From positions 1 to 64,000 of the IMG/VR virus record IMGVR_UViG_3300027754_000003: a stretch of DNA of 64,000 nucleotides; one strand, 5' to 3'. Below the pieces are notes generated by a model. That model had not been told where the DNA came from, did not search any database, and saw only the letters and a program-made list of their open reading frames with translations. Shown in pieces: positions 5,255-63,951 of this stretch. This stretch comes from a virus. Position 1 is the stretch's first letter. The number at the start of each line of letters is the position of its first letter. Position numbers and translations under genes: made by a program.

Positions 5255-5256
5255 GC

Positions 5257-7202: not shown

Positions 7203-7211
7203 TGTTGTTCC

Positions 7212-9610: not shown

Positions 9611-9615
9611 GAATC

Positions 9616-50812: not shown

Positions 50813-50818
50813 GAACCT

Positions 50819-50995: not shown

Positions 50996-51074
50996 AATTC
51001 TCCTTAGTTAGGGTCGTTTTGCCTATTTACGCTTGTCTACGGGCCTCCTAGGAGGCTCTACGTGGCTTGTGGGC

Positions 51075-52664: not shown

Positions 52665-52973
52665 TTAGGTGAGATTTTGAATTTGCCTTTGGTGGTCTGG
52701 CAATGCTTGATGTACAAAAGTGCCGTAAGCACTGATTGCTTGTAAGTACGCATACACACGTTGGTAGTTGTAGTAAATATTATGTTCTAGTGCGTCAACT
52801 ACTTCTGCCAAAACTTCTTTTGTTGTTTGAAGGATGTGCTCTTTCATTACATCAACAAATTCTGGGTGTTCCTCCACCAACTCAAAAAGGTCTGGAAAAT
52901 CTTGAAGTGTGTAAACGGAATTATTATAAGTAATGACAGGACCAATATTGCTTACATTAATTTTAAAAGACAT
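52665..52973 (-). CDS. hypothetical protein
   Basis: 102 aa ORF ending fibre cassette 2. Confidence 0.65.
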   Translation of the reverse strand: MSFKINVSNIGPVITYNNSVYTLQDFPDLFELVEEHPEFVDVMKEHILQTTKEVLAEVVDALEHNIYYNYQRVYAYLQAISAYGTFVHQALPDHQRQIQNLT

Positions 52974-52976
52974 GTT

Positions 52977-53126
52977 CTACCACTTTCCAATTGGGCATGT
53001 TTGTGATTCAAGCCTAGTCTTTATTTTCATAAAGCAACCACATTCTTTACATTGAAATGTTGGTTTAAAAAGACGATCACAATTTCTACAGATTTCTAAA
53101 CGCTTTTTTGTTAGTTCTTCGCTCAT
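52977..53126 (-). CDS. DUF6171-like Cys-rich small protein (49 aa)
   Basis: Read manually: MSEELTKKRLEICRNCDRLFKPTFQCKECGCFMKIKTRLESQTCPIGKW; ATGA-coupled. Confidence 0.8.
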   Translation of the reverse strand: MSEELTKKRLEICRNCDRLFKPTFQCKECGCFMKIKTRLESQTCPIGKW

Positions 53127-54208
53127 GCAGGCCAGTATACAACCGTTTCTACGGTTGTTGCTTGCGTACCAGAGGCTACAGGGGCAACAATAATTCCATG
53201 TCTTGTAGTTCTAGTCGGGCTGGCTGGAGTGGTTTGTATTTGGGCTACTGTTCCGCCAGCGCTCGTTTGTGCTGTTGCGGTTATTTGTCCAGCATCATTG
53301 GTTGCTACGTTCATATAGGAAACACCAATACTATTATCAGTGGTTGCCCCAAACCCTGAAGTGGCTACTTGTGAAACCACACCATTTTCCATTTTAATCA
53401 GTTTGATTGATGTGGTGTAATACGTAGTGGCGTTGTAAGTGTTTCCACCACCAGTAGCAGTACCCACACATGTTTGTTCAACATACTCTCCGCCTGTTTC
53501 TGAGTGCCACGCTAACGATGTTGGTGGAATGAGGGGGCAAGCGGTATACCCTGAGTAACATTTATTTCCTACAAGACCACCACCAGGTCCACAAGGTCCT
53601 GGGCATCGTGCTTCACAAGTTAAACCTGAAGGTGAACCATAGTAAACGGCGTTACCTTTGAACGTGGTGTAATAACAACAACCGTTAGTGCCAAGTAAAT
53701 ACCCAGTTTGTGCGCCGCAGTAATAACCGCCTGCGTCATATCCACCACATATGAATACCCCAATATATTGAGTTCTGTCTGGTCCACAAGTACCACCAAC
53801 GATTGGTGTGGTGTAACTACAGTCGTAGTTGTAGTTATACGAATACGGTGTTACGTAGCAAGTCCCATCCCCGTTATTAACGTCACCAGCACTACACCCA
53901 AATGAAGATGTTTTTTCGGAAACTACTGCCCACCAGTTTTCTGAGTCTTTTACCCAAAAAGCAACACCCCATCCACCTGCTAATTCTCCGTAGTCAGCCC
54001 TAATACTTACATTCTTTGTGTTTGCGTTAAACGTAGTAAGTGGGTATGTATTAGCGGCTGAATACGTAGCGGCTTTATTAGATTGAATGCTCCAAGAGCC
54101 TCTGATATTTGACCACTTTGAAGGCAACGAGGAGCCGTTAGAACCTACAAACGCATCCGCAAATGTTGGGAGAATGCCAGATGTGGAGGCAACAATGCCA
54201 GTAATCAT
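53123..54208 (-). CDS. fibre-tip / receptor-binding candidate: lectin-like scaffold with a Cys/Tyr/Gly-rich insert
   Basis: Beta-sandwich-like N- and C-halves (W...RGSW.I, G.GVAFWV.D..NWW, HGII.AP) around a 14-Cys insert. Confidence 0.65.
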   Translation of the reverse strand: MITGIVASTSGILPTFADAFVGSNGSSLPSKWSNIRGSWSIQSNKAATYSAANTYPLTTFNANTKNVSIRADYGELAGGWGVAFWVKDSENWWAVVSEKTSSFGCSAGDVNNGDGTCYVTPYSYNYNYDCSYTTPIVGGTCGPDRTQYIGVFICGGYDAGGYYCGAQTGYLLGTNGCCYYTTFKGNAVYYGSPSGLTCEARCPGPCGPGGGLVGNKCYSGYTACPLIPPTSLAWHSETGGEYVEQTCVGTATGGGNTYNATTYYTTSIKLIKMENGVVSQVATSGFGATTDNSIGVSYMNVATNDAGQITATAQTSAGGTVAQIQTTPASPTRTTRHGIIVAPVASGTQATTVETVVYWPA

Positions 54209-54211
54209 GGA

Positions 54212-54568
54212 TTAACTCGTGATGTTTCCGATAAGGACCCATGTGTTGGCTGCGGTCTTAATCAAAGTAGCGGCTGCGTACTGACCGTTTAGTTTATATT
54301 TGTTGCTCTCCGCAAAAAGCGTGGCGTTGCCAGCAGAAACTGTCACTACGTTTGCCGCCGAGCCAGTCTGTAGAATATCTACACGGTCACCAATGCCAAA
54401 GTTTGCTTCACTATCGTTAGGTACAGAAATTGTCCACGCACCCGTAATTAATAGAATCTTTCCCAAGTCATTAAGAGTAAGAACTCTAGTCCCTGTGAAA
54501 TCCTCAACTTGTGAGTTAAACCCAACCAAGTTCCTACTAGCGGTGTTTTCAGAAAGGCGAGAAATCAC
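54212..54568 (-). CDS. virion fibre adaptor domain protein
   Basis: L...D.GK, VP......F.IG...I.Q.G, L.GQY.AATLIK...NTWVLIGN. Confidence 0.65.
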   Translation of the reverse strand: MISRLSENTASRNLVGFNSQVEDFTGTRVLTLNDLGKILLITGAWTISVPNDSEANFGIGDRVDILQTGSAANVVTVSAGNATLFAESNKYKLNGQYAAATLIKTAANTWVLIGNITS

Positions 54569-54894
54569 GAAATTTCTGCCCCGAACAACGAGAACGAAAG
54601 GTTGGCGCTTGACGCATAGACAGTCACTACGTCAGTAGTTGCCAATGTCAAACCAACACTCAAAGTGACGGTGTCTTTTGCCAAGATGTTGGCATCATAA
54701 ATCATGTAGTGCTGGTTAGCAATAGTTGCACCAACAGGGCGTACAGCCACACGATAGGTGGCTGCCGTTGTTCCACGGTTACACACGGACAGCGTTGAAG
54801 CCACTACTGATTTCCCAGCACCTACGGTGAGAAGGTCGGTATTGGTAGTCGCTGATGGTGCTGATTGGGCAAGAACTTTATATGCTTGGGCCAC
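54565..54894 (-). CDS. small beta-sandwich virion connector protein
   Basis: MAQAYKVLAQSAPSATT.TDL.TV...VCN...SF.LFG.E; paralog of 63589..63951. Confidence 0.65.
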   Translation of the reverse strand: MAQAYKVLAQSAPSATTNTDLLTVGAGKSVVASTLSVCNRGTTAATYRVAVRPVGATIANQHYMIYDANILAKDTVTLSVGLTLATTDVVTVYASSANLSFSLFGAEIS

Positions 54895-54940
54895 GGGTGC
54901 TCCTTAGAAGTCTGTAATGACCCCCATTTTACCATCAATC

Positions 54941-55225
54941 TTATAAAAAGTGCTTGAGGATAGCCGTGGTTGCTAGAACCACCCAACAAAGATTGAACCA
55001 AATGATTGTTGGCATGGTCTTGATTGTTGATGTGACAATCAAAGCGATGCTTGACGCAAGAGCAAAAAGGTACATCCACCACCATTGTTTATCAAAGATA
55101 AGACCTGGAACAATGATTGAAATCTTGGTCATAAAAGCCCAAGCCTCAATAATGTTCACCTTTGTCCAATAATCTCGGTCACCCCAACGGCGTGTTACCT
55201 GCATAATTTCTGATGGTTTTAACAT
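54941..55225 (-). CDS. small multi-TM membrane protein
   Basis: Three hydrophobic segments; leaderless TAGGAT-N6-ATG. Confidence 0.7.
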   Translation of the reverse strand: MLKPSEIMQVTRRWGDRDYWTKVNIIEAWAFMTKISIIVPGLIFDKQWWWMYLFALASSIALIVTSTIKTMPTIIWFNLCWVVLATTAILKHFL

Positions 55226-55234
55226 GGCTTTATC

Positions 55235-55639
55235 CTACTTGCTCATTGACAATCCTGCTCTAGGGGTCAGGGAAATAACCTCATGGTTTACTGTTGCTGG
55301 GACATAGATAAGGTCCCCAGGTTCTAGCGTGTAATCACCATAATCCGTAATCCATTTTGTTGAACCCTGGCATTGCCAAAAATAAACATCTTCCGTATCG
55401 TTATGTTTACCGAATCCGTGGTTTCCTTTTGCCGTAGACACGTAAACATGAGCCACAGTTAAGCCTAGGGTTTCCAAAACCGCTTCTGCGGACTTCATGG
55501 TGTGTCCATCTACGGTTGTCGTAAAGCACCCCCCAATGCGGCGAAACGAACCACCAGATTCTTTTGACGCTTCAATATTTTCGTTTATCTCATCCCATGT
55601 TGGGGTAGGAAAATAAAACCCTTTTGTAAAGATCACCAT
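55235..55639 (-). CDS. JmjC/cupin oxygenase (minimal, ROXA-like)
   Basis: H.D..DV...Q..G...W, L.PGDLIYVP....H.V. Confidence 0.8.
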   Translation of the reverse strand: MVIFTKGFYFPTPTWDEINENIEASKESGGSFRRIGGCFTTTVDGHTMKSAEAVLETLGLTVAHVYVSTAKGNHGFGKHNDTEDVYFWQCQGSTKWITDYGDYTLEPGDLIYVPATVNHEVISLTPRAGLSMSK

Positions 55640-55645
55640 TTTCCC

Positions 55646-55661
55646 ATACTAGCGCTAGTAT
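55646..55661. promoter_or_regulatory. palindromic bidirectional -10 element for two divergent leaderless genes
   Basis: Perfect palindrome ATACTAGCGCTAGTAT gives TAGTAT-N6-ATG on both strands. Confidence 0.75.
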
Positions 55662-55667
55662 CTGGTC

Positions 55668-56159
55668 ATGGACAAAAAAGAACCATTTCATGTAGTTGTG
55701 CGAGATAGAAGTTGCGGAACATGCACAAAATGTTGTGAGGGTTACCTAGCAGGGGAAATCCAGGGGATACCTTTCTACGAAGGAAAACCCTGTCATTTTG
55801 TGGACATTGGTTCTGGATGTTCTATTTATGAAGACAGACCAGAAGAACCTTGTAAGGCATTCAAGTGCTTATGGTTATCTGACCCAAACTACCCAGAATG
55901 GTTGAAACCAAATATTAGTAATGTCATGTTTGTTGACAGGTACATTGGTCCACATCCTTATGTTTTTGCTAAAGAGGCTGGCGGGAAAATGGATGCCAGG
56001 ACATTATCTTGGGCAATAAACTACATGTCATTCAATAAGTTTAATTTTGCTTGGCAATATGACGGTGGGTGGAACGCAATAGGTACTGACGAGTTTGTTA
56101 AAGCCTATTTTGAAAATGAGCGATATTATGCCCCAAACGGAAAAGTTGAGAATCGCTAG
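55668..56159 (+). CDS. YkgJ-like CxxCxxCC Zn/Fe-cluster protein
   Basis: CGTCTKCCEG...PCHF...GCSIYEDRP..PC..F.C.W; the only credible plus-strand gene. Confidence 0.85.
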   Translation: MDKKEPFHVVVRDRSCGTCTKCCEGYLAGEIQGIPFYEGKPCHFVDIGSGCSIYEDRPEEPCKAFKCLWLSDPNYPEWLKPNISNVMFVDRYIGPHPYVFAKEAGGKMDARTLSWAINYMSFNKFNFAWQYDGGWNAIGTDEFVKAYFENERYYAPNGKVENR

Positions 56160-56713
56160 ATTGTTAGTTCAAGGAAATCAAAATTAAAAGCAATTACTGT
56201 CTTTCTTTTCTTTGAGTTATTCACTGGGGAGCGATGTATCAGGGATGCTGGAAATAGCACAACGTCACCTTCGGATACGTTGAATCTTCTCACGATTGAC
56301 GTATCAAACGGTTCAACAAACTCCGTCACACATTCCTGGTCTGGGAGTTCTAAATAATAAATACCAGAAAAGTTTGAACCAGCGTGATTGTGCCAATGGT
56401 GGTAGTCGCCACTCTCATATTGTTGGAACCAAACACCACGCATTTCAAGTGTTTTATGCAGTATTGAATCTGGGAGACTAGCCATGAAACCATTAATGTA
56501 TTCACAAAACAGAGATGACCACGGTCTTTCCTCTTCCAGCAATGAGAAATCATATCTAGAGATTCGTTCTAAGTTATTAGATGGGTCTTTCTTTGATTCA
56601 AAGTCAGCAGACTCTATGAGGCTTAACATAACTGGTTTTAGAGAGTCATGGTTTGGCATTTTTCTAACCATGTATGAACCGTGATATTGGTGTTTTGTTA
56701 CAAAATCAGACAT
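56156..56713 (-). CDS. 2OG-Fe(II) oxygenase (TIGR02466-like)
   Basis: WFQQY..GD.H.WHNH, SGIYY, EGD.VLFP..L.H.S..N...RKT.IAFN. Confidence 0.85.
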   Translation of the reverse strand: MSDFVTKHQYHGSYMVRKMPNHDSLKPVMLSLIESADFESKKDPSNNLERISRYDFSLLEEERPWSSLFCEYINGFMASLPDSILHKTLEMRGVWFQQYESGDYHHWHNHAGSNFSGIYYLELPDQECVTEFVEPFDTSIVRRFNVSEGDVVLFPASLIHRSPVNNSKKRKTVIAFNFDFLELTI

Positions 56714-56723
56714 TGTTCCTCTT

Positions 56724-57368
56724 TTACACGTATTTTTGGTAGGTATTCATTGACTTGTGTAAGTACTTTTTTATCATTTTATTTTCACGTTTTTTGTAAG
56801 CGGTATGGTATTCCTCTGTACGAAGTGGGCTTACCCCTGTATTATTAAAAAACCAATGATCTGGTTCAGCATAGTGTGCAATAAATACTTCTACATAATC
56901 GTTATAGTTTTCTTTAGGAAACTCTGGCCTCCAGTGTAACTGCTTTACACCATTATACAAAAGAGCATCCCTGTCCCCCCATGTATATTCTTTTCCGTTT
57001 ACGTACATAGGCCATGAGACAGTTGATTTGAGTTGTATATCAATTGTGTATGTGCAGGCATTGTCGTCTAGATGTGGTGGCAAATTTGGAACGCCGTACT
57101 GTGGAGAGTACCGAAACCATTTAAAATAAGATGGTAATGCTGTACTAGAAAAGTTATCAACAACAATTTTATTTAATGTTTCGTATATTTCAAAAGGTAA
57201 AGATTCTCCATCAACAAATGTTGCTCTTGGGTCTGCACTTTTTCTTCCAACTGCGTTATTAAAATGGTTCTTTTTTTGTGGATGTGTGTTGATGTACTCA
57301 AGTATCACGCTCTGTTGCTGTTCAGAGATGACGTTTTTTAAAACTTTTGGTTTTTTTACCCTTTTCAT
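56724..57368 (-). CDS. 2OG-Fe(II) oxygenase
   Basis: L.PH.D...C, WP.Y, LY.G....HWR. Confidence 0.8.
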   Translation of the reverse strand: MKRVKKPKVLKNVISEQQQSVILEYINTHPQKKNHFNNAVGRKSADPRATFVDGESLPFEIYETLNKIVVDNFSSTALPSYFKWFRYSPQYGVPNLPPHLDDNACTYTIDIQLKSTVSWPMYVNGKEYTWGDRDALLYNGVKQLHWRPEFPKENYNDYVEVFIAHYAEPDHWFFNNTGVSPLRTEEYHTAYKKRENKMIKKYLHKSMNTYQKYV

Positions 57369-58045
57369 ATAACTAATGAAGGTTTGCACTCAAACTGGAT
57401 TGGTTTATGCGGTGGTTCGTGGCAATCAATGAATGTACTAATCATCCATTTATCTCCAGAAATTGGAACTCTACCGACATGTGGGTGTGTCCAATACGCT
57501 GGAAATATTGATATGTCCCCTACAGATGCTGGAATAACAATATTGTGTGATGGGAATCCAGTCCCACCACCTACATCAACTGTGTTTAGGTACATGACAA
57601 CACCAAGAACACGCAAATTAATAGGGTTTGAGGACCAAGGGTCACCATCAGTATGTGACCTGTAAAACCCATCTCTTGGGGAGTACCTTTGGAGTCTATA
57701 ACCAGTGTCTTTTAAATCAACATGAAACAACTCAACGTATTCCTGAACGTACAATGCTAAAGCAGAATAAAGACCAACAGTTACTGCATCTTCACATTTA
57801 GTAAATACTGAACTGTTAATACCAAAAGAATCAACAACTGACTTTGAAAAAGAAAAGTCCATAGTGTTTTTTATTTTTGGGTTAAGCCCACCAAGTGTTG
57901 GCCCTGGTGAAAAAAGAGTTTCAAAGTTTTCAAGGCACTTAGTGACTAACTCAGAACATACGTTTTCTGGTATTGCATTTTTAACTACAGCAATAGCAGA
58001 AGATTTTCCAGCAGGGAATTCTATCCTCATTTGATTATCCGTCAT
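57365..58045 (-). CDS. prolyl 4-hydroxylase-like 2OG-Fe(II) oxygenase
   Basis: H.D, R.L...YLN.V..GG.T.F, IFP..WTHPH, K. Confidence 0.88.
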   Translation of the reverse strand: MTDNQMRIEFPAGKSSAIAVVKNAIPENVCSELVTKCLENFETLFSPGPTLGGLNPKIKNTMDFSFSKSVVDSFGINSSVFTKCEDAVTVGLYSALALYVQEYVELFHVDLKDTGYRLQRYSPRDGFYRSHTDGDPWSSNPINLRVLGVVMYLNTVDVGGGTGFPSHNIVIPASVGDISIFPAYWTHPHVGRVPISGDKWMISTFIDCHEPPHKPIQFECKPSLVI

Positions 58046-58458
58046 GGTATGAATACTAGCGCCGAATCAACGAGATTTCCACCCTTCAAAATTTGGATTA
58101 AAAACTCTCCAGATTCTTCTGGAGTAAACGAACCTATTAGAGAATGTTTGTCCCGTAAAAATGAGTAATAAACACATTCTTTATCCCCGTTAGTCACGAC
58201 TAACTTGCAGTTTTCTACGGTTTCAAAATCGTTCAAATAATCAAACAATATTGGAAATGCGTGGTTAACTTCATCGGGTATATGCATCATAAACCCGTTG
58301 TTAACGGGAACTACTACTACACATGGTTTTGACCTATCAAACTCAATAGATTTTGTTTTTTCCGAATCACCTATTTGGATTGGAAGGCTCCACTCCTTGG
58401 CAAGTTCCTCTGCTTCTTCTAGTTGTTCTTCAGATTGGCAATAAACAATCCTATCCAT
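58042..58458 (-). CDS. hypothetical protein
   Basis: 138 aa coupled ORF inside the enzyme cluster. Confidence 0.65.
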   Translation of the reverse strand: MDRIVYCQSEEQLEEAEELAKEWSLPIQIGDSEKTKSIEFDRSKPCVVVVPVNNGFMMHIPDEVNHAFPILFDYLNDFETVENCKLVVTNGDKECVYYSFLRDKHSLIGSFTPEESGEFLIQILKGGNLVDSALVFIP

Positions 58459-59320
58459 TTTTGTTTTCCTTACGCAGTTTTGTATCTATCTTATTTTGTT
58501 CTGCTTTGTACTTTCCATGAAAATCTTCGTTTCTCCACGCACCATCAAATCCAAGATTATCAAGGAGCGCATACATGGATGAATCTCCTCGTTTTAATGT
58601 TGATTTCTTTGTAGTGTCCTCACGTTTGAATGGGATTACGTGGTACAGAGGGGTTCCTTCTTTAATTACAAACTCGTTATCAACTTTTATATTCAAAACT
58701 ATGTTTGCATGATGGTAATAGTCAGTATTGACAACTCCAGCCATAACTTGGTAATTTTGGTTTGGTTCCCATTGAGGACCTATAAGCAATGATGAGTAGC
58801 CTGGTGCTGTCTTAATAAGCCAAGGATTTAGCAATTTTACATAATTAGATGTTTTTAATTTTCTATCGTTTGCCATTGGACACTCACCAGTTTGGGCAAA
58901 ATTAAACTGATTTTGAGCAACACCCTCGTCTGAAAAGTACTGTTTTTTTTCTTCTTCTGTAAGTACGCCCGTTTCCAATACAGTACTACTGGAGTGGTTG
59001 TATTTAGTATCCCATGTAGCATTTAACTTGCTTATAGGTGGTCGTATGGATATTTCTGCCCACATAGGTATTGTATACCCAGAACGCAAAAAATCTGATA
59101 GACCAGAACACGTACGAAGACTTGCATCTCCCTTTTGTAGTTTTTCATACCACTCTGCAAATTTTGTATTGCTTGCATAAGCGGAAATTGATGGATGATA
59201 AAAATGATTTGTTGGTGGTACCATCAAAACTTCATTTGGTTTAATTTCTGGTATTTGCTCCCAGGTATCTGCTTTTACTAGCCCATCTTCATTATTTTTG
59301 ATTTTTGAAAATAGACGCAT
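58451..59320 (-). CDS. DUF6065-like (dUTPase-like beta-clip) protein
   Basis: C.G..D....GY.IP.W, K..NPW.I.T.PGYS, GVV.TD.Y, I..GTPL..VIPF.RE. Confidence 0.65.
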   Translation of the reverse strand: MRLFSKIKNNEDGLVKADTWEQIPEIKPNEVLMVPPTNHFYHPSISAYASNTKFAEWYEKLQKGDASLRTCSGLSDFLRSGYTIPMWAEISIRPPISKLNATWDTKYNHSSSTVLETGVLTEEEKKQYFSDEGVAQNQFNFAQTGECPMANDRKLKTSNYVKLLNPWLIKTAPGYSSLLIGPQWEPNQNYQVMAGVVNTDYYHHANIVLNIKVDNEFVIKEGTPLYHVIPFKREDTTKKSTLKRGDSSMYALLDNLGFDGAWRNEDFHGKYKAEQNKIDTKLRKENKNG

Positions 59321-60770
59321 GTGGAACTCTCTTTCGTTGTAGTGTCATTGACCTTAGTGACGTATAGTGTTGAATTATTGGTTCTCTTGATTGATAAGCA
59401 TCTAGACCCATAGATGCTACTTCTTTTGGTATTAACCCCTGCCCTTGTGCAACGTGCCACAAATGAGGAGTAGCAAATAACTCATAACCAAACCTAGGAA
59501 TATCAGTGTCTAATGGTACTCGTTCTTTCCACAATTCAAGAAGAAAACTCAGTGTATCTGGAATTTTTGCGTTTTTCTGAGCAACCCACATAGCCGAATC
59601 TTCTCTATCTGATATGTAGTGCAATGAAATCATAGTCAGGATGTTATCCATTAAAGAATCAAAGGTTTTTCTGTAATGTTCAACCTGGGCTACTGACGAA
59701 GGTCCAAATGTTGGCAAAATTGCACAAATCATTCTTGCCTGTTGAATTGAGGTTGAAATTGATGTTGCCTCAAGTGGTTCTACAAAGGAGGAAGCAAGAC
59801 CAACGGAAGCACAGTTGAACTCAAAGGAGTGTTTAAAATACCCAGATTTGTATCTGATTATTCTTGCTGGGGTTATTTCCCTACCATATGCTTCAGAGAG
59901 TTCTTTAACGGCCTGATCGTCTGAGCAAAAATCAGATGCAAAGATATAACCATTTCCTCTGCGTTCTTGAGTTGGTATCTCAAACACCCAGCCATTTGCT
60001 AACGCTCGTGCTCTTGTGTATGGTCGGATTTCCCCAGACTCGTCTGGTGGTGTTGGAAATACTGCAGCAGAGTCAGTGGGCAAATAGTCTCTGTACGAAA
60101 TAAAAGTATCTTCTTTAACTAGTTGTGACATCAACATACGTTTAAACCCAGTTGCATCAATATAGAAATCTGCGGCAATGTTTAAACCAGTGTCTGTTGA
60201 AATTGATGTAATAAACCCGTTTTCTGGGTTTCTTTCAATTTTTTCAACAATTCCTTCATGCAACTCAACCCCTCTATCCTGAGCAAGTCGTTTGAGGTAA
60301 TTGTTTAGTTTGAAAGTGTCAAAATGAAATTGATTTGTTGTGTTGTGTTGTTGATGTGGGTCTTCCGTTTGGATAACCTCGTTATCCCATAGATGATCTG
60401 AGTTTACGGCTGCTGTGAGAGGCCACCCGTTTTCAAGTGCAAATGCATAGTTTGAGTAATAGTCGTTTGGCCCAAAGCCACCCTCTGAAACGCTATGAAA
60501 ATAGTCTGGTGTATGATTTGTCCAGTTTTCAAACCTGATTCCGTATTTGTGCGTTGCAGCGCATTCACGAACCATTTCATTAACATCTATACCGTGTGGG
60601 GTAGTAAAGAACTGTTTCCAGTGCTCTGTTGAGCCTTCCCCAACGCCAATTATTCCTATCTTTGCTGAAGATACAACTGTTAATTTGTAGTGTGGAAAAA
60701 AACCACGGGCCATTATCGCAGTAAGTAATCCAGCAGTACCAGAACCAACTATACAAACATGTTTTTGCAT
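59292..60770 (-). CDS. flavin-dependent (tryptophan halogenase family) halogenase
   Basis: IVGSGTAG, IGVGEG, AT.K.GI.F..W, IDATGF, GWVFEIP, F.EPLEATSI. Confidence 0.92.
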   Translation of the reverse strand: MQKHVCIVGSGTAGLLTAIMARGFFPHYKLTVVSSAKIGIIGVGEGSTEHWKQFFTTPHGIDVNEMVRECAATHKYGIRFENWTNHTPDYFHSVSEGGFGPNDYYSNYAFALENGWPLTAAVNSDHLWDNEVIQTEDPHQQHNTTNQFHFDTFKLNNYLKRLAQDRGVELHEGIVEKIERNPENGFITSISTDTGLNIAADFYIDATGFKRMLMSQLVKEDTFISYRDYLPTDSAAVFPTPPDESGEIRPYTRARALANGWVFEIPTQERRGNGYIFASDFCSDDQAVKELSEAYGREITPARIIRYKSGYFKHSFEFNCASVGLASSFVEPLEATSISTSIQQARMICAILPTFGPSSVAQVEHYRKTFDSLMDNILTMISLHYISDREDSAMWVAQKNAKIPDTLSFLLELWKERVPLDTDIPRFGYELFATPHLWHVAQGQGLIPKEVASMGLDAYQSREPIIQHYTSLRSMTLQRKRVPHASIFKNQK

Positions 60771-60773
60771 GTA

Positions 60774-61379
60774 CTACCTAAACCAAGAAACAATTGAATA
60801 CTTTACTTCCTCGCTGTTTTCTCCAACAGGGTTAGCGTAATGGAAATACGGAAAGTTACTTGGGAACAAAACTACAGAACCAGCCTTTGGTTTTACTGTC
60901 ACATTAAGCAACGGGAATGTAAGTTCTCCACCATCACTAACGTCATTTACAAATCCAACAAGACTAAATACTCTCCCGTTATCTTGGTGGTGGTCAACAT
61001 GGCCCCGATATTCAGCGCCAGAACCATACTTAAGAATTCTGTAACCTTCGTTTGTTGATACTTCAATATTGAATGAATTTCTGTAATGCCAAATAACTTT
61101 TTCTAATTGTTCAGTAATATCTTGTGCGGATTTAGCCAAAGGTATTACTCTTTCAACTTGGATATTGTCAACTGGAGACATTAATGGAGAAAGTTCACAA
61201 CCTTGTGAAGAACGGTACGAACTTGTTGTTGCGGTGCTTTCTCCGCCAGTTTGCGACCTAAACCATTGGACATATCCCCAATCTTGTTTACATTCTCCTT
61301 CTAAAAGTTCTATAAAGTTTGATGGTTTAAAAGCATTCTCATACACGTATATACATGTACCAAGTTCAATTGGTTTCAT
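60774..61379 (-). CDS. prolyl 4-hydroxylase-like 2OG-Fe(II) oxygenase
   Basis: L.Y..G..Y..HVD, R.FS....ND...GGEL.F, FPSNFPY.H...PV, KYS.V.W. Confidence 0.9.
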   Translation of the reverse strand: MKPIELGTCIYVYENAFKPSNFIELLEGECKQDWGYVQWFRSQTGGESTATTSSYRSSQGCELSPLMSPVDNIQVERVIPLAKSAQDITEQLEKVIWHYRNSFNIEVSTNEGYRILKYGSGAEYRGHVDHHQDNGRVFSLVGFVNDVSDGGELTFPLLNVTVKPKAGSVVLFPSNFPYFHYANPVGENSEEVKYSIVSWFR

Positions 61380-61394
61380 TTTGTTAGTCTTTCG

Positions 61395-62855
61395 TTAGGA
61401 ATCTATGTCTTTGATTATAGTCACGTTTGAGTTGGGTATGTGCGTAGAAATGTTTCTTGTGAAAACAACAAGGGTTCCAGGGGCTCCAGGGTTTCCACTA
61501 GCGCCAGGGTTTCCAGGGTTTCCAGAGTTTGCTGTCCCACCAGTACCACCTGGGTAGGTAGGGTTGTGATTTGCTACGGTTCCTGGGGTATGACCAGTGA
61601 CGTTGTGGGTATTGGCGTTATGACCACTGACATTGTGGGTATTAGCGTTATGATTAGCGACATCGTGGTGATTAGCGTTATGACCACTGACGTGGAAGTG
61701 GTTTGCATGGTGTCCATCTTGTGCAGCAACATGTTTTGTGTGTGAGTGACCTTTATGCGTTGGGTGACCAGCGTTATGCGCTGCGTTTCCTGCAGTATGG
61801 GCTGCTGGTCTATGGTGCGCTGGGTTATGGGTTTTTGGGGGAGTTGCACGAATAACGGTTGAAGCGTTATGAAGCGCTCCAAGGAAATGACTAGGGTTAT
61901 GGTATGGGTTTCCAGGAACTGTATGTGGGTGTTGGTGGTTTGGGTTTGAATATGGATGATTTGAAGCAGCAATATGCCACGCAATTGCTCCGCCTTCTGC
62001 ATGATTTGCATAAGCCCCACTACCAGAATCATGGTGGTTTGCAGTAGCCCCACTACCAGAATCTGAATGGTTTGCAGTAGCCCCAGTACCAGCATCCGTA
62101 TGGTTTGCAGTCGCTGGGTTTAAGTTTGCAGTACCAGCAACTGTTGTTCCAGCATTTCCTGCTACTCCAGCATTTCCAGAAGTGCCAGAAGTACCCGATG
62201 CTCCAGTAGTTCCCTCGCTCACAAAAGTTCCACTCCCAGTAATGTTGTTTGCAACAATAACCACTGAACCACCTGCTTGACCAAACGACCCACCAGTTCC
62301 CTTTAATCCCTTTGTCCCAGCAGTTCCAGCGTTTCCAGCAGTTGCGCCGCCTGCTGGTGAAGGAGCCGCTCCGCCTGGATTTGCAGTTCCGTCTGCTCCG
62401 TCTGCTCCGTCAGAACCAGCAGTTCCTTTTGTTCCAGGATACCAACGCTTAACTTGCAACCCAGTTTGACGTACTCCATAAATAAGTGAGTCGTAATCAT
62501 CAATAGAAGCAATAGATGCAATGCTTCCGTCAATAGCATCGGCAGAATTGTATCCAGCAGTCCCGTCATCACGAGTCATCACGCTTCCAGCAAGAACAGA
62601 CGTTGTCTGCGAGGTTCCGCTTGGCATACCTACTGTGCCACTGTTAGCAAGCGTTCCTTTTACAAATATCTTAAATCCGTTTGTGAATAACGTAATTCCG
62701 CTATTTACAGTCAGGTTGTTGTAGTACATATCTCTAGAAATAGTTTGATTAGTAGATATGACAACATTACCGTCAGCACCGTTTCCAAATAATTTTAACG
62801 CTCTGTCGTTTTGAGCAGTCTTGTTTGAAGGTTTGTTGAGTCTAATTTTTTTCAT
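61395..62855 (-). CDS. Gly-rich virion fibre protein with a His/Asn-rich repeat insert
   Basis: FG.G.DG...YNNLT...TNG.KIFV scaffold, G-X-X runs, about 36 His in a roughly 185-aa insert. Confidence 0.7.
   Translation of the reverse strand: MKKIRLNKPSNKTAQNDRALKLFGNGADGNVVISTNQTISRDMYYNNLTVNSGITLFTNGFKIFVKGTLANSGTVGMPSGTSQTTSVLAGSVMTRDDGTAGYNSADAIDGSIASIASIDDYDSLIYGVRQTGLQVKRWYPGTKGTAGSDGADGADGTANPGGAAPSPAGGATAGNAGTAGTKGLKGTGGSFGQAGGSVVIVANNITGSGTFVSEGTTGASGTSGTSGNAGVAGNAGTTVAGTANLNPATANHTDAGTGATANHSDSGSGATANHHDSGSGAYANHAEGGAIAWHIAASNHPYSNPNHQHPHTVPGNPYHNPSHFLGALHNASTVIRATPPKTHNPAHHRPAAHTAGNAAHNAGHPTHKGHSHTKHVAAQDGHHANHFHVSGHNANHHDVANHNANTHNVSGHNANTHNVTGHTPGTVANHNPTYPGGTGGTANSGNPGNPGASGNPGAPGTLVVFTRNISTHIPNSNVTIIKDIDS
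61591..61710. repeat. 4 x 30-bp coding tandem repeat (HNANxHx-VxG)
   Basis: tgaccactgacattgtgggtattagcgtta-like units starting at 61591, 61621, 61651 and 61681. Confidence 0.9.
61996..62114. repeat. about 4 x 33-bp coding tandem repeat (ATANHxD-SGSG)
   Basis: tggtttgcagtagccccactaccagaatc-like units at a 33-bp period. Confidence 0.9.
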
Positions 62856-63589
62856 TATCCAACCTGCATGTAATAGACAGTTCCACTAGCACAGCCAGTA
62901 CCCCCAGTTACGTCTGTTGATACTGCTGCATTTAAACTTGAATCAGAAGAGATAATTAAGACTACACCACCGCCACCGCCACCTGCTCCTGGAGTTCCAG
63001 GGGCAGAAATGTAAGCAGTGCCTGAAGTTACTGTAATGTACCTAGCAACGACCATAACAACGCCACCACCTGCGCCAGCAGTTCCACCAGCGCCACCACG
63101 AAGAAATGTCGGGGTTGGACTAGCGGCAGATACCGCCCATCCTTTAACTGCTTGGAGTGGTTGTTGGTAATAGATAGAACTACCAAGGGCTGCTGTTGGG
63201 GCAGTGGCGGTTTGTGAGGCACTAGCACCACCAAGACTGTGAGTAACTGATGCCGATGTACCCCCACCTTGTCCTAACGTGCCAGCAGTAGAATAACCAG
63301 TCGTATAACCGATTCTTGCTCCAGGACCAAGTGTTAGGACATTACGAACAAACAACCTATAGCCGTTTGTTGACACGGTAATACCACCAGCAATAGTTAG
63401 GTTTGTATAAAACTTGTCCTCAGTCAAAGAAGTGTTAGCGGAAATTGTTGCATCACCGTCTGAGCCAGAACTGTAAATAGGGTCAGGAACATTAATGTAA
63501 TCAACTACATCAGTCCATGTACTTGAGATTGTAGATGTACTTTCCGCAGTTGATATTGTCGTTCCATTTAAGCGAACGAACGATGCCAT
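62855..63589 (-). CDS. Gly-rich virion fibre protein (paralog of 61395..62855 without the insert)
   Basis: Y.SGSDGD.TI...YTNLTI...TNGYRLFV; GGAGG...GGGVV.V.AR.I; G.GGGGGVV. Confidence 0.7.
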   Translation of the reverse strand: MASFVRLNGTTISTAESTSTISSTWTDVVDYINVPDPIYSSGSDGDATISANTSLTEDKFYTNLTIAGGITVSTNGYRLFVRNVLTLGPGARIGYTTGYSTAGTLGQGGGTSASVTHSLGGASASQTATAPTAALGSSIYYQQPLQAVKGWAVSAASPTPTFLRGGAGGTAGAGGGVVMVVARYITVTSGTAYISAPGTPGAGGGGGGVVLIISSDSSLNAAVSTDVTGGTGCASGTVYYMQVG

Positions 63590-63951
63590 TACGACTCCTC
63601 AATACCAGTAAGGATAATATTTACTGCTGAGTTAGTACTTGCCGAACCAATGATTTGGTCGCTATTTGTAGCGTTTGCAGTGCTTCCGTTGTTGTTTAAC
63701 ACCAAAGATGTTGAAATGGTTACAGTTTCGTTTGCTGCTAAAGAAAGAACATTTAAGAAGTTTTGTGACGAAGCCTGAGCCACGTTGAGGGGTTTTAGCA
63801 CCAAAGTAACTGTTACAGCACTACCAGTGGTGTTACATAGCAAGATTTGCTTGATGATTGTGGTAGTACTGATTGGCGTGGTGTACAGCACCGTTGATGT
63901 TGTCGTAGTCAACTGGGTTGGCCCAGAAAGACGTTTTTGGGTGACTGGCAT
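63589..63951 (-). CDS. small beta-sandwich virion connector protein
   Basis: KRL.GP.QL.....LYT......I.QI.LCNT...VN...TG.E. Confidence 0.65.
   Translation of the reverse strand: MPVTQKRLSGPTQLTTTTSTVLYTTPISTTTIIKQILLCNTTGSAVTVTLVLKPLNVAQASSQNFLNVLSLAANETVTISTSLVLNNNGSTANATNSDQIIGSASTNSAVNIILTGIEES

What the first reader, a model, noticed from the sequence alone, without database searches (positions are those of the whole stretch)
52665..63951. Candidate phage fibre-tailoring system: an oxygenase/halogenase cluster between two fibre cassettes with exotic inserts
Seen: nine contiguous genes at 55235-61379 encode two P4H-like and two other 2OG-Fe(II) oxygenases, a JmjC cupin, a flavin-dependent halogenase, a DUF6065-like protein, a CxxCxxCC protein and one unknown. 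The run begins 15 nt after the His/Asn/Pro-rich fibre gene and ends just before a second cassette whose fibre has a Cys/Tyr-rich insert. No NRPS/PKS, transporter or small-molecule pathway genes are present. Known: 2OG/JmjC enzymes hydroxylate Pro, Asn, Asp, His and Arg in proteins, and some halogenases act on peptidyl Trp. Such genes in aquatic phages are usually labelled auxiliary metabolic genes. Inference: the substrates are the neighbouring virion fibres, making this a RiPP-like post-translational decoration of receptor-binding appendages.
Basis: partly seen in the sequence, partly recalled or inferred. Interest (0 to 1): 0.88.

Follow-up and report, generated by a model that had tools for sequence, protein, structure and literature searches.

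The report
Fibre-linked halogenase and oxygenase gene cluster
An uncultured 98-kb tailed phage carries nine genes for hydroxylating and halogenating enzymes directly behind a histidine-packed tail-fibre-type protein; the same pairing recurs in dozens of related phages, so the fibre is a plausible but untested target of an enzyme set known from cyanophage Syn9 since 2010.

Summary
At 55235-61379 there are nine tightly packed genes:
- two P4H-like dioxygenases and one PF13759 dioxygenase;
- one further protein family with an invariant HxD...H triad;
- a small JmjC cupin;
- a Trp-halogenase-family flavin enzyme;
- a CxxCxxCC protein, on the opposite strand;
- one unknown;
- a "DUF6065-like" protein that is a dUTPase-fold protein (Syn9 gp43 family), not an oxygenase.

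This enzyme set was described for cyanophage Syn9 by Iyer et al. 2010 (PMC2938197), who proposed organohalogen metabolite synthesis.

Here the genome is complete and is not T4-like. In related IMG/VR contigs the paralogous glycine-rich proteins g244 and g486 are nearly always followed by such enzymes: 45 of 48 loci, and the other 3 end within about 2 kb after the gene. Their upstream neighbours vary. The g486 insert is hypervariable. A sister lineage lacks the halogenase, has a Tyr/Asn-rich insert and carries a methyltransferase. Two other arrangements carry a GT60 glycosyltransferase.

The downstream Cys/Tyr "second cassette" is not conserved. Co-variation of enzymes and insert rests on one evolutionary split. 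No modification has been shown.

Verdict: first reading partly supported; a new variant of a known kind. This scan found the same kind of cluster before in at least 16 other genomes.

The parts
63589..63951 (-). g120: small protein that precedes fibre-type genes. Paralogues precede other fibre-like genes in related contigs.
   Evidence: phrog_20100, unknown function, E 8e-7. Its cluster has 73 members and often occurs 2-3 times per locus, each time in front of a large fibre-like ORF.
62855..63589 (-). g244: glycine-rich beta-solenoid protein. It is the insert-less paralogue of g486.
   Evidence: AF2 model: pLDDT 86, pTM 0.81. BFVD Foldseek hits collagen-like proteins of Pandoravirus and Orpheovirus, E 8e-14 to 1e-10. 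Against PDB there are only weak beta-helix adhesin matches, Z up to 6.6. More than 587 metagenomic clusters exist.
61395..62855 (-). g486: fibre/adhesin-type protein. It combines a conserved scaffold and Gly-X-Y-like arms with a ~195-aa hypervariable His/Asn/Pro-rich insert, and is the candidate substrate.
   Evidence: Sequence. Weak PF01391 and phrog_8745 tail-fibre hits. Against the closest relative the scaffold is 83-88% identical and the insert 42%. Pro-Gly dipeptides: 7 observed against 2.5 expected, reached in 3 of 500 shuffles.
60774..61379 (-). P4H-like 2OG/Fe(II) dioxygenase (oxy3).
   Evidence: PF13640, E 2e-13. B. anthracis P4H 3itq/5hv0, E 8e-11. HVD...H...K seen in the sequence. 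Present in 30 of 31 g486 loci that have at least 6 kb of downstream sequence.
59292..60770 (-). Flavin-dependent halogenase of the Trp-halogenase family (the family that includes VirX1).
   Evidence: PF04820, E 8e-97. PDB hits to RebH, PrnA, Thal and VirX1 6qgm. GSGTAGL, a Lys in THKYGIRFENW, GWVFEIP and FVEPLE are visible. Best cultured-phage match is 38% identity, S-H38.
58451..59320 (-). dUTPase-fold protein with an invariant Cys (Syn9 gp43 family, phrog_7084).
   Evidence: AF2 pLDDT 74. Foldseek E 4e-5 to dUTPases. VIA Z 9.6, with all of the top 22 hits dUTPase or dCTP deaminase. phrog_7084, E 8e-30, the same family as the Syn10 gp43 homologue. Invariant C71, D76, K162, D200, R233 and Y271. 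No PF00692 hit.
58042..58458 (-). u138: unknown 138-aa protein. In most halogenase-lineage relatives it sits between the fibre gene and oxy3.
   Evidence: No Pfam, PHROG or Atlas hit. Its family has 21 unique members in the related loci.
57365..58045 (-). Second P4H-like dioxygenase (226 aa).
   Evidence: B. anthracis P4H, E 6e-4. HTD...H...K visible. Clusters with oxy3. Present only in the close relatives L011/L012 and a few other loci.
56724..57389 (-). u221: probable 2OG/Fe(II) dioxygenase of an undescribed family.
   Evidence: Invariant H106, D108 and H152 across 12 homologues. No Pfam or PDB sequence hit. Also present in the halogenase-less lineage.
56156..56713 (-). 2OG-FeII_Oxy_5 dioxygenase (the cyanophage/pelagiphage 'PhyH-like' type).
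   Evidence: PF13759, E 1e-13. 31% identity to an HTVC008M 2OG gene.
55668..56159 (+). Cys-rich CxxCxxCC protein, inverted within the operon.
   Evidence: CGTCTKCC motif. PF03692 only at E 0.13. The same inverted position, at 85% identity, occurs in L012.
55235..55639 (-). Minimal JmjC/cupin dioxygenase (134 aa).
   Evidence: PF08007 JmjC_2, E 1e-11. HND...H visible. 32% identity to an S-H38 ORF near its halogenase.
54941..55225 (-). g94: conserved Trp-rich small membrane protein that closes the core module in relatives.
   Evidence: 56-61% identical across loci in which the halogenase is 42-49% identical. Sequences. No family hit.
52665..54894 (-). Second fibre cassette (109-aa and 118-aa fibre fragments, a 361-aa Cys/Tyr-rich protein and a 102-aa protein). 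It is adjacent here but not linked to the enzymes in relatives.
   Evidence: PHROG tail-fibre hits for 54565-54894 and 54212-54568. Sequence. No homologue of the 361-aa protein in the 79 related loci; the only g118 homologue lies ~8 kb upstream of the fibre gene in L010/L011.

Best explanation
This is a fibre-associated tailoring module. A pair of paralogous glycine-rich beta-solenoid adhesin-type proteins is co-inherited and probably co-transcribed with the enzymes. The pair is g244, and g486 with its hypervariable His/Asn/Pro-rich insert.

The enzymes are P4H-like dioxygenases, a flavin-dependent halogenase and a dUTPase-fold Cys protein. In this genome there are also four extra dioxygenase/cupin genes and a CxxCxxCC protein.

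The most likely mechanism is that these cytoplasmic enzymes modify the phage's own adhesin before or during assembly. All of the following steps are inferred:
- prolyl hydroxylation at X-Pro-Gly sites in the collagen-like arms and the insert;
- further side-chain hydroxylation by the other dioxygenases;
- halogenation of aromatic or imidazole side chains by the halogenase, using host-reduced flavin.

What is shown: the gene content, the folds, the conserved linkage to g244/g486, and the hypervariability of the insert. What is inferred: that the adhesin is the substrate, and which residues are modified.
For: 1. Linkage. 45 of 48 dereplicated loci with a g486-family gene have the enzymes nearby; the 3 exceptions are cut by a contig end. 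Of 31 unique g486 variants with at least 6 kb downstream, 30 have oxy3, 28 the dUTPase-fold gene and 23 the halogenase. Halogenase identity is only 42-49% across most of these loci, and upstream neighbours differ.
2. Negative control. 13 loci that carry only the shared N-terminal motif have no such enzymes.
3. The position always holds tailoring-type enzymes, but different ones. One lineage has two oxy3 genes, u221, an FkbM methyltransferase and two dUTPase-fold genes, and no halogenase. Two other arrangements (L043/L044 and L068) have a PF11397/GT60 glycosyltransferase (E 1e-29) next to P4H-like genes. This is not the mixed cargo expected of a simple insertion hotspot.
4. oxy3 is closest to the collagen-type P4H of B. 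anthracis. Pro-Gly is over-represented in this g486 (3 of 500 shuffles) and in several relatives.
5. The insert is 42% identical where the scaffold is 83-88% and the enzymes 58-88% identical.
6. Independent lineage. In Syn9, Syn10 and P-TIM40, Gly-rich 'tail fiber assembly' proteins lie directly upstream of two halogenases, a gp43-like gene and dioxygenases. Syn9 gp38 matches PF21722 (E 2e-10), and the P-TIM40 proteins have 9-10 His in 60 aa. In S-SRM01 the halogenase sits between a tail fibre gene and a Gly-rich gp38-type adhesin gene.
7. VirX1 has a large accessible active site, is a trimer, and has no known natural product (PMC8407142).
8. Precedents. A mimivirus collagen-modifying lysyl hydroxylase and glycosyltransferases are described in PMC9546862 and PMC5802723 (titles and abstracts only). 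Iyer et al. proposed collagen-like and tail-collar proteins as dioxygenase substrates in bacterial operons.
9. In experimental host adaptation of cyanophage S-TIM4, the mutated genes were mostly tail-fibre and baseplate genes, and a 2OG gene was also hit (PMC6224464).
Against: - No modified residue has been observed anywhere.
- Conserved gene order among related phages can be inherited rather than selected.
- The match between halogenase and His-rich insert is a single split on the tree.
- Pro-Gly enrichment is absent from many halogenase-lineage inserts.
- This g486 insert has little Trp or Tyr (0.4% and 1.6%), and flavin-dependent halogenation of His has no enzymatic precedent that I know of.
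- Halogenase, dioxygenase or gp43-like homologues lie away from fibre genes in S-PM2, S-H38, S-RIM4 and HTVC008M.
- The gp43-like gene sits beside thymidylate synthase or RNR genes in haloviruses and in S-RIM4.
- VirX1 acts on free small molecules in vitro.
- 'Fibre' identity of g244/g486 rests on weak hits.
Confidence: 0.4

Rival explanations
1. Small-molecule tailoring (the reading of Iyer et al. 2010). The halogenase and the varied dioxygenases act in series on an amino-acid-derived or other host metabolite to make a halogenated, hydroxylated compound during infection. Their position beside fibre genes reflects a tolerated insertion site in the late region.
For: - The same enzyme set in Syn9 was read this way (PMC2938197).
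- Related bacterial neighbourhoods pair halogenases and JmjC genes with TonB receptors and peptide synthetases.
- VirX1 halogenates many free aromatic compounds.
- Homologues in S-PM2, S-H38 and HTVC008M are not next to fibre genes.
- GC is lower at 56-60 kb (0.376-0.378) than in the flanks, which is compatible with acquired cargo.
Against: - The cluster holds no scaffold-forming enzyme (NRPS, PKS, ATP-grasp, prenyltransferase) and no exporter. The genome-wide family searches I ran covered only dUTPase, flavin reductase, ThyA/ThyX and RNR.
- Linkage to g244/g486 is near-complete while upstream neighbours change.
- The enzymes at this position include protein-directed types: collagen-type P4H and GT60.
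- A lytic phage gains little from a slow secondary-metabolite pathway (inference).
Confidence: 0.22
2. Host-directed protein hydroxylation or 2OG drain (auxiliary metabolic gene reading). The P4H-like and JmjC enzymes modify host proteins such as translation factors or ribosomal proteins, or simply consume 2-oxoglutarate to alter nitrogen-status signalling. The halogenase has a separate unknown role.
For: - JmjC_2 is the YcfD/ribosomal-oxygenase family; there is a weak match to the 'cupin 4 family protein' 4csw.
- Sullivan et al. 2010 proposed 2OG/NtcA modulation and DNA repair for cyanophage 2OG enzymes (PMC3037559).
- 2OG oxygenase genes are scattered widely across cyanophage genomes: 132 phage records match oxy3.
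Against: - It does not explain the near-obligate pairing with g244/g486, the change of enzyme set together with insert type, or the GT60 and methyltransferase partners.
- TerL is nearest to Streptomyces phages, so no cyanobacterial host or NtcA logic is established for this phage.
Confidence: 0.13
3. Nucleotide or DNA chemistry. The dUTPase-fold protein binds a deoxynucleotide, and the halogenase and dioxygenases modify bases or nucleotides for phage DNA.
For: - dUTPase/dCTP-deaminase fold, Z 9.6, with motif II- and III-like conserved residues.
- Homologues sit directly after thymidylate synthase in halovirus HRTV-2, and beside RNR genes in HSTV-4 and S-RIM4.
- This phage has no canonical dUTPase.
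Against: - No PF00692 match.
- None of the dioxygenases matched a TET/JBP or AlkB family in Pfam; they matched PF13640, PF13759 and JmjC_2.
- The phage has no ThyA, ThyX or RNR with which to use such a pathway.
- In this lineage the gene is embedded in the fibre-linked operon, and it is duplicated in the halogenase-less lineage.
Confidence: 0.07
4. The dUTPase-fold protein, and perhaps u138 and the ~77-aa helical protein c9 seen in relatives, are assembly chaperones for the trimeric Gly-rich adhesin. The dioxygenases and halogenase are functionally unrelated passengers.
For: - dUTPase-fold proteins are trimers, as fibres are (general knowledge).
- The gp43-like gene lies within 1.1 kb of a g244-type adhesin gene even in haloarchaeal virus HSTV-4. 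That adhesin shares the g244 N-terminal motif (hhalign probability 92.5%, E 5e-7).
- Herpesviruses reuse this fold for non-enzymatic proteins (hits).
Against: - Invariant polar residues (Cys, Asp, Lys, Arg, Tyr) look like an active site.
- In HSTV-4 the gene is on the opposite strand, at a module border next to an RNR gene.
- It does not explain why P4H-like genes are as tightly linked as the dUTPase-fold gene.
Confidence: 0.08

Closest known systems
Syn9/Syn10/P-TIM40 cyanomyovirus dioxygenase-halogenase neighbourhood (Syn9 gp38-gp54; Iyer, Abhiman, de Souza and Aravind 2010, PMC2938197)
   Same: - Trp-halogenase-family enzymes.
- A dUTPase-fold protein with a conserved Cys (the same PHROG, 7084).
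- Several unrelated 2OG dioxygenase families and a JmjC protein in tandem.
- The cluster lies directly downstream of Gly-rich, His-containing fibre-region proteins.
   Different: - The genome here is a 98-kb virus that is not T4-like; TerL is nearest to Streptomyces phages.
- One halogenase rather than two, and five dioxygenase-type genes rather than ten.
- The neighbouring protein family (g244/g486) shows no detectable homology to Syn9 gp36/gp38 or P-TIM40 gp042.
- The published interpretation was secondary-metabolite synthesis, not virion modification.
VirX1, the flavin-dependent iodinase/halogenase of cyanophage Syn10 (PDB 6QGM)
   Same: Same Pfam family. It is hit in the PDB search at E 7e-38. 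Viral origin, and no known natural substrate.
   Different: Only about 28% identity. Halide preference and substrate were not testable here. The WxWxIP motif reads GWVFEIP.
Virus-encoded collagen modification: the mimivirus L230 lysyl hydroxylase/glycosyltransferase and R699 glucosyltransferase
   Same: A virus encodes both a collagen-like protein and 2OG-oxygenase and glycosyltransferase enzymes that modify collagen (PMC9546862, PMC5802723; titles and abstracts only). The g244 fold matches giant-virus collagen-like proteins.
   Different: The chemistry differs (Lys hydroxylation and glycosylation), the viruses infect eukaryotes, and there is no halogenase. Modification is demonstrated there and not here. 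That mimivirus collagen sits on the surface fibrils is from my memory.
T4 gp37 HxH iron-binding needle, and T2/S16 gp38 polyglycine adhesins with hypervariable segments
   Same: Distal fibre proteins in which glycine-rich motifs frame hypervariable, receptor-facing segments, and His-rich stretches that could bind metal (my knowledge of those structures; sequence).
   Different: Structural similarity is weak (S16 gp37-gp38 complex 6f45 Z 4.5; PP01 gp38 Z 4.1). No sequence homology was found. Those systems need no tailoring enzymes.
Skp1 prolyl-hydroxylase plus GT60 hydroxyproline GlcNAc-transferase pathway (that GT60 includes this activity is from memory; PF11397 = GT60 per PMC6418280)
   Same: In the related loci L043/L044 and L068 a P4H-like gene lies in the same cluster as a PF11397/GT60 gene. 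This pairing marks hydroxyproline glycosylation of a protein.
   Different: The GT60 gene is absent from this window. Here other glycosyltransferases lie 4-6 kb downstream (49023-50812). Eukaryotic cytoplasmic system versus phage.

Membership tests
Syn9-type phage dioxygenase/halogenase neighbourhood (Iyer et al. 2010) | At least one Trp-halogenase-family flavin enzyme with a Rossmann motif and the catalytic Lys | tested here: met
   PF04820, E 8e-97. GSGTAGL, and a Lys in THKYGIRFENW.
Syn9-type phage dioxygenase/halogenase neighbourhood (Iyer et al. 2010) | A dUTPase-fold protein with a conserved cysteine | tested here: met
   VIA Z 9.6 and Foldseek E 4e-5 to dUTPases. Invariant C71. Same PHROG, 7084, as the Syn10 homologue of Syn9 gp43.
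Syn9-type phage dioxygenase/halogenase neighbourhood (Iyer et al. 2010) | Tandem array of several distantly related dioxygenases, including a JmjC-type member | tested here: met
   PF13640, PF13759 and PF08007, a second P4H-like gene, and an HxD...H family with no Pfam model.
Syn9-type phage dioxygenase/halogenase neighbourhood (Iyer et al. 2010) | Carried by a T4-like cyanomyovirus | tested here: not met
   98,060-bp genome with terminal repeats. TerL is 45-47% identical to Streptomyces phages, with no cyanophage hit. PolA-type polymerase.
Flavin-dependent halogenase (active enzyme) | GxGxxG, WxWxIP, the catalytic Lys and the Glu of the EPLE motif | tested here: inconclusive
   GxGxxG, the Lys and FVEPLE are present. 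The second Trp of WxWxIP is Phe (GWVFEIP). Activity is not testable here. No flavin reductase gene in the genome.
Collagen-type prolyl 4-hydroxylase | HxD...H iron triad plus a 2OG-binding Lys, and sequence similarity to characterised P4Hs | tested here: met
   HVD, a distal His and a Lys in the sequence. B. anthracis P4H, E 8e-11.
Collagen-type prolyl 4-hydroxylase | Hydroxylates X-Pro-Gly in a protein substrate | not testable with these tools
   Only indirect evidence: Pro-Gly enrichment in g486 (3 of 500 shuffles), which is not universal among relatives.
RiPP biosynthetic cluster | Short precursor peptide with leader and core, a recognition element, and a leader protease or exporter | tested here: not met
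   The candidate substrates are 244-486-aa structural-type proteins. No protease, recognition-element or transporter domain was found in the cluster. 'RiPP-like' is an analogy only.
dUTPase (enzyme family PF00692) | Match to the dUTPase profile with its five motifs | tested here: not met
   No PF00692 match in the genome at E 0.01. Only the fold and motif II/III-like residues are shared.
Phage tail fibre / receptor-binding protein | Homology to a known fibre or adhesin, or presence in virions | tested here: inconclusive
   - g486: phrog_8745, E 2e-4.
- g244: beta-helix adhesin-like fold, Z up to 6.6, and collagen-like viral proteins in BFVD.
- The N-terminal motif is shared with the HSTV-4 'putative adhesin'.
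- Flanked by an 857-aa and a 434-aa protein with PHROG fibre or structural hits.
- No virion proteomics exist.

The most novel reading that the evidence does not exclude
The enzymes turn the His/Tyr/Pro-rich insert of the adhesin into a chemically hardened or adhesive tip. It would be hydroxylated, halogenated and perhaps metal-cross-linked, in the manner of halogenated His-rich marine biomaterials (Nereis jaw protein, mussel byssal proteins; an analogy from memory). The enzyme set would be swapped when the insert chemistry changes: halogenase with His-rich inserts, methyltransferase with Tyr/Asn-rich inserts, GT60 with Pro/Phe-rich inserts. That would be the first halogenated virion protein and the long-sought natural substrate class of viral halogenases such as VirX1.
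Probability: 0.2. Interest if true: 0.9.

Novelty: new variant of a known kind. Interest (0 to 1): 0.6.

Why it matters
- **An open question becomes testable.** Viral flavin-dependent halogenases and the many 2OG oxygenases of aquatic phages are abundant, are routinely labelled auxiliary metabolic genes, and have no known natural substrate. VirX1 is used as a biocatalyst, yet its biological role is unknown.
- **A specific candidate substrate.** A near-obligate genetic link to one family of hypervariable adhesin-type proteins is seen here in a lineage unrelated to T4-like cyanophages. A parallel arrangement occurs in Syn9, Syn10 and P-TIM40. This names a protein that can be examined by mass spectrometry.
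- **If confirmed.** Phages would be shown to diversify receptor-binding tips by enzymatic chemistry as well as by sequence. Part of the marine 'AMG' inventory would then be re-read as virion maturation genes.
- **If refuted.** The metabolite reading of 2010 stands, and the linkage needs another explanation.

Tried and rejected
- Megablast of the region against cultured phages gave no match. tblastn of g244 against cultured phages gave no match.
- Profile searches of the g244 and dUTPase-fold alignments against PDB sequences gave nothing significant. The same was true for the u221 family.
- Foldseek of the g244 model against PDB gave no hit with E below 0.001. VIA-align gave only generic beta-helix matches (Z up to 6.6). 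The polyglycine-adhesin idea scored only Z 4.5 (S16 complex 6f45) and Z 4.1 (PP01 gp38), so it remains unproven.
- hhalign of the g244 profile against Syn9 gp36, Syn9 gp38 and P-TIM40 gp042 found no homology. The two Gly-rich families are analogous at best.
- The Atlas look-ups for c7 and u138 returned nothing usable.
I therefore could not read the Pfam-annotated neighbourhoods of the 130-200-kb contigs that carry g244 homologues.
- The genome-contig scan found only the N-terminal motif, in 7 MAG contigs with no enzymes nearby and no host clue.
- Co-variation of enzyme set and insert composition collapses to one split on the g244 tree: 21 halogenase-bearing rows against 8 without. I therefore do not count it as statistical support.
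- X-Pro-Gly enrichment as a universal substrate signature is rejected. It is significant here and in about 8 relatives, and absent in many His-rich inserts.
- The sigma-70 promoter and terminator scan gave counts at or below shuffle expectation, so it says nothing about operon structure.
- I considered that the halovirus adjacency of the dUTPase-fold gene to an adhesin gene proves a link. I downgraded this after finding the gene co-directional with thymidylate synthase in HRTV-2.

Full report
**Setting**

The window is the first 64 kb of a 98,060-bp IMG/VR virus record with direct terminal repeats, rated complete. It is a contractile-tailed phage. It has a sheath gene (29771-31318), a baseplate wedge gene (19440-21239), a portal gene (36989-38680), TerL (44664-46229), a PolA-type polymerase and DnaB- and SNF2-type helicases. 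TerL is nearest to Streptomyces phages BRock and LuckySocke (45-47% identity), with no cyanophage hit. The phage is therefore not a T4-like cyanophage, and its host is unknown.

From about 73.6 kb down to 52.6 kb the minus strand carries fibre-type genes. These include an 857-aa protein (63951-66524) and a 434-aa protein with PHROG fibre or structural hits. A 237-aa protein there has a weak match to an L-shaped-tail-fibre-assembly PHROG.

**Check of the observation**

The nine genes at 55235-61379 are real ORFs, separated by 3-15 nt or overlapping. Their domains are as follows.

| Gene (coordinates) | Result |
|---|---|
| 60774-61379 | PF13640; best solved relative is the collagen-type P4H of Bacillus anthracis, E 8e-11; HVD...H...K in the sequence |
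| 59292-60770 | PF04820 halogenase, E 8e-97; matches RebH, PrnA, Thal and VirX1; GxGxxG, catalytic Lys and EPLE Glu present; WxWxIP reads GWVFEIP |
| 58451-59320 | weak DUF6065 hit; dUTPase fold (see below) |
| 58042-58458 | unknown |
| 57365-58045 | second P4H-like gene, E 6e-4 to the same P4H |
| 56724-57389 | family with invariant H106, D108 and H152; no Pfam or PDB relative |
| 56156-56713 | PF13759 |
| 55668-56159 | CxxCxxCC protein on the plus strand, inverted inside the operon; same orientation in the relative L012 |
| 55235-55639 | 134-aa JmjC_2 cupin |

The one substantive correction concerns 58451-59320. Its weak DUF6065 hit hides a dUTPase/dCTP-deaminase fold:
- The AlphaFold model has pLDDT 74.
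- Foldseek gives E 4e-5 to dUTPases.
- With VIA-align the top 22 chains are all dUTPases or dCTP deaminases (Z up to 9.6), followed by a drop to unrelated folds.
- The family has an invariant Cys and belongs to phrog_7084 together with the Syn10 homologue of Syn9 gp43.

**The flanking proteins**

The 486-aa protein (61395-62855) has four regions:
1. A conserved N-terminal region.
2. Gly-rich, collagen-like arms.
3. An insert of about 195 aa with 14.5% His and 13.7% Asn.
4. A conserved C-terminal strand.

The 244-aa protein upstream (62855-63589) is its paralogue without the insert. Its model is confident (pLDDT 86, pTM 0.81) and is a small beta-solenoid. It has no significant PDB match by Foldseek. 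With VIA-align it gives only generic beta-helix adhesin matches: EtpA, HMW1, IcsA and a CBA120 tailspike at Z 5.3-6.6, and the S16 gp37-gp38 complex at Z 4.5. Against predicted viral structures it matches 'collagen-like' proteins of Pandoravirus and Orpheovirus (E 8e-14 to 1e-10) and uncultured Caudovirales proteins. 'Fibre or adhesin' is therefore a reasonable reading, but it is not proven.

**Comparative evidence**

A scan of IMG/VR with the 486-aa protein returned 79 loci. I called and clustered their ORFs.

*Halogenase lineage.* This is a large and divergent group, with halogenase identity of only 42-49% across most loci. Its gene order is:

g120 - g244 - g486 - (77-aa helical protein) - u138 - P4H-like - (a ~360-aa unknown, or two others) - halogenase - dUTPase-fold - g94

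The closest relatives (L010-L012) have the same nine-gene set as the window. The core of the module is therefore P4H-like, halogenase and dUTPase-fold. The window's lineage has added a second P4H-like gene, u221, the PF13759 gene, the CxxCxxCC gene and the JmjC gene.

*Linkage counts.*
- Of 48 dereplicated loci with a g486-family gene, 45 have these enzymes nearby. The other three end at or within about 2 kb after the gene.
- Of 31 unique g486 variants with at least 6 kb of downstream sequence, 30 have the P4H-like gene, 28 the dUTPase-fold gene and 23 the halogenase.
- Upstream neighbours differ from clade to clade.
- Thirteen loci that share only the ~50-aa N-terminal motif have none of the enzymes. 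Seven MAG contigs found in prokaryote assemblies also have none.

*Sister lineage without a halogenase.* Its order is:

g120 - g486 - g244 - two unknowns - two P4H-like genes - u221 - an FkbM-type methyltransferase - dUTPase-fold genes (usually two)

Its insert is rich in Tyr, Asn and Gly, and its His content is only 3-5%.

*GT60 arrangements.*
- L043/L044 have g244, then a PF11397 glycosyltransferase (E 1e-29), two dUTPase-fold genes and a P4H-like gene.
- L068 has a Pro/Phe-rich insert with no His, followed by two P4H-like genes, u221, the same glycosyltransferase family and a dUTPase-fold gene.
- PF11397 is CAZy family GT60 (PMC6418280). From memory, GT60 contains polypeptide and hydroxyproline GlcNAc-transferases.

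So the position behind this adhesin pair always holds tailoring-type enzymes, with a constant core and varying accessories. The mixed cargo expected of an insertion hotspot is not seen.

**Hypervariability of the insert**

I compared the window with its closest relative.

| Region or gene | Identity |
|---|---|
| g486 scaffold | 83-88% |
| g486 insert | 42% |
| g244 | 87% |
| Enzymes | 58-88% |

The repeat units in the insert are replaced: 11-residue ANH-type repeats here, 5-residue HNPGG and NPHPG units in the relative. A short His-rich core is kept. Pro-Gly dipeptides are over-represented in this protein (7 against 2.5 expected, reached in 3 of 500 shuffles) and in several relatives. They are not over-represented in many His-rich inserts. 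X-Pro-Gly therefore cannot be the universal recognition element.

**Limits of the comparative evidence**

- On a g244 tree, the halogenase-bearing, His-rich loci (21 rows) and the halogenase-less, His-poor loci (8 rows) form two clades.
- The downstream 'second cassette' is not part of the conserved unit. The 361-aa Cys/Tyr-rich protein has no homologue in any of the 79 loci. In L012 a glycosyltransferase follows the JmjC gene directly.

**Other phage lineages**

The halogenase has homologues in 70 cultured-phage records, all below 40% identity.

| Phage(s) | Arrangement |
|---|---|
| Syn9, Syn10, P-TIM40 | tail fibre - Gly-rich 'tail fiber assembly' proteins - two halogenases - gp43-like - dioxygenases including a JmjC |
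| S-SRM01 | halogenase between a tail fibre gene and a Gly-rich gp38-type adhesin gene |
| P-SSM2 | halogenase next to LtfC-like fibre-assembly genes and a 2OG gene |
| S-PM2, S-H38 | halogenase not beside an annotated fibre gene; nearest in S-H38 is about 6.5 kb away |
| HTVC008M | halogenase between the terminase genes |
| S-RIM4 | gp43-like gene alone, after nrdAB |
| HSTV-4 (halovirus) | gp43-like gene 1.1 kb from an adhesin gene, but on the other strand next to an RNR gene |
| HRTV-2 (halovirus) | gp43-like gene directly after thymidylate synthase |

Three details bear on this table:
- In Syn9, gp38 matches PF21722 (E 2e-10). The P-TIM40 Gly-rich proteins have 9-10 His in 60 aa.
- These Gly-rich proteins are not detectably homologous to g244. 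This is therefore a parallel arrangement rather than the same ancestry.
- The HSTV-4 adhesin shares the g244 N-terminal motif (hhalign probability 92.5%, E 5e-7).

A nucleotide-related role for the dUTPase-fold protein therefore cannot be excluded. Against it, this phage has no dUTPase, ThyA, ThyX or RNR profile match.

**Literature**

- Iyer et al. [quoted passage not shown] They proposed organohalogen secondary-metabolite synthesis. In the same paper they proposed collagen-like and tail-collar proteins as dioxygenase substrates in bacterial operons (PMC2938197).
- Sullivan et al. 2010 proposed 2OG/nitrogen-status modulation or DNA repair (PMC3037559).
- VirX1 of Syn10 is a trimer with a large accessible active site, prefers iodide, and has no listed natural product (PMC8407142).
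- In experimental adaptation of cyanophage S-TIM4 to poor hosts, 14 of the 20 mutated genes encoded virion proteins, mostly of the tail fibres and baseplate. One of the six non-virion genes hit was a 2OG gene (PMC6224464).
- I found no paper reporting hydroxylated or halogenated phage virion proteins.

**Earlier notes of this scan**

After I had reached this reading, a look-up of earlier notes showed that the same kind of cluster had been followed up in at least 16 other genomes, with the same verdict. One was a 95-kb phage with a His-packed protein followed by a halogenase, a P4H-like gene and a dUTPase-fold gene. My analysis was made independently of those notes and agrees with them.

**Judgement**

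The enzyme cluster is a member of a kind known since 2010. This window adds four things:
1. A lineage that is not T4-like, in which the cluster is tied almost without exception to one adhesin-type protein family with a hypervariable insert.
2. A halogenase-less sister lineage, and two GT60-bearing arrangements, at the same position.
3. Independent confirmation of the fold of the gp43-like protein.
4. The finding that the second, downstream cassette is incidental.

The fibre-tailoring reading is the best single explanation, at about 0.4. It rests on gene linkage and enzyme type only. The metabolite, host-protein, nucleotide and chaperone readings remain open.

Noticed in passing
window 54941-55225 (-): A 94-aa protein with three hydrophobic segments and Trp clusters (QWWW, HFWWF). 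It is the best-conserved gene of the neighbourhood: 56-61% identical where the halogenase is 42-49%. In most relatives it directly follows the dUTPase-fold gene. It could be holin-like or part of the module; it has no family hit.
   Followed up: partly
window 47603-52649 (-): A 524-aa protein with an N-terminal hydrophobic segment, a long Thr/Ser/Pro mucin-like stalk, acidic repeats and a C-terminal hydrophobic segment ending in RRRR. It is followed by glycosyltransferase genes, including phrog_7162 (E 1e-37) at 49730-50812. Homologues of both lie near the module in several relatives; in L012 the glycosyltransferase directly follows the JmjC gene. It could be another P4H/glycosylation substrate.
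   Followed up: partly
L089 (Halorubrum virus HSTV-4) 8623-9825 and 6848-7729; L094 (HRTV-2) 4944-5816: The haloarchaeal virus 'putative adhesin' shares the g244 N-terminal motif (hhalign probability 92.5%) and a polyGly-plus-hydrophobic-strand C-terminus. Fifty-five records in the cultured-phage collection hold a gp43-like dUTPase-fold gene, 47 of them haloarchaeal viruses. In the two haloviruses I examined the gene lies at the border between the tail module and nucleotide-metabolism genes (RNR in HSTV-4, thymidylate synthase in HRTV-2).
   Followed up: partly
window 62855-63000 and 62650-62800 (N-terminal ~50 aa of the 244-aa and 486-aa proteins): A ~50-aa motif (DG-V-IS-NT-L--D-YY-NLT---G--L-T-GYR-FV) is shared by many otherwise unrelated fibre-like genes in IMG/VR. 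It also occurs in contigs binned into Saccharibacteria, Colwellbacteria, Erythrobacter and Acidobacteria MAGs. It looks like a common fibre attachment or start module.
   Followed up: partly
window 56000-60000: GC content drops to 0.376-0.378 across the accessory enzyme genes, against 0.42-0.455 in the flanking Gly/Ala-rich fibre genes. This may reflect amino-acid composition or later acquisition. A second low-GC stretch lies at 18-26 kb.
   Followed up: no
window 55640-56160: The CxxCxxCC gene is inverted inside an otherwise one-directional operon. It converges with the PF13759 gene (4-nt overlap of their 3' ends) and diverges from the JmjC gene across 28 nt. The downstream genes therefore need their own promoter or antisense read-through. 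The arrangement is conserved in L012.
   Followed up: no
L034 / L072 (IMG/VR contigs): Some relatives carry two g244 copies and two fibre cassettes flanking the enzyme block. Several loci have two or three g120 paralogues, each in front of a different large fibre-like gene. This suggests modular fibre cassettes.
   Followed up: no
whole genome G000: The 98-kb phage has no profile match to dUTPase, ThyA, ThyX, the RNR large subunit or flavin reductase. Its TerL is closest to Streptomyces siphovirus-type phages, although it has a contractile-tail module.
   Followed up: partly
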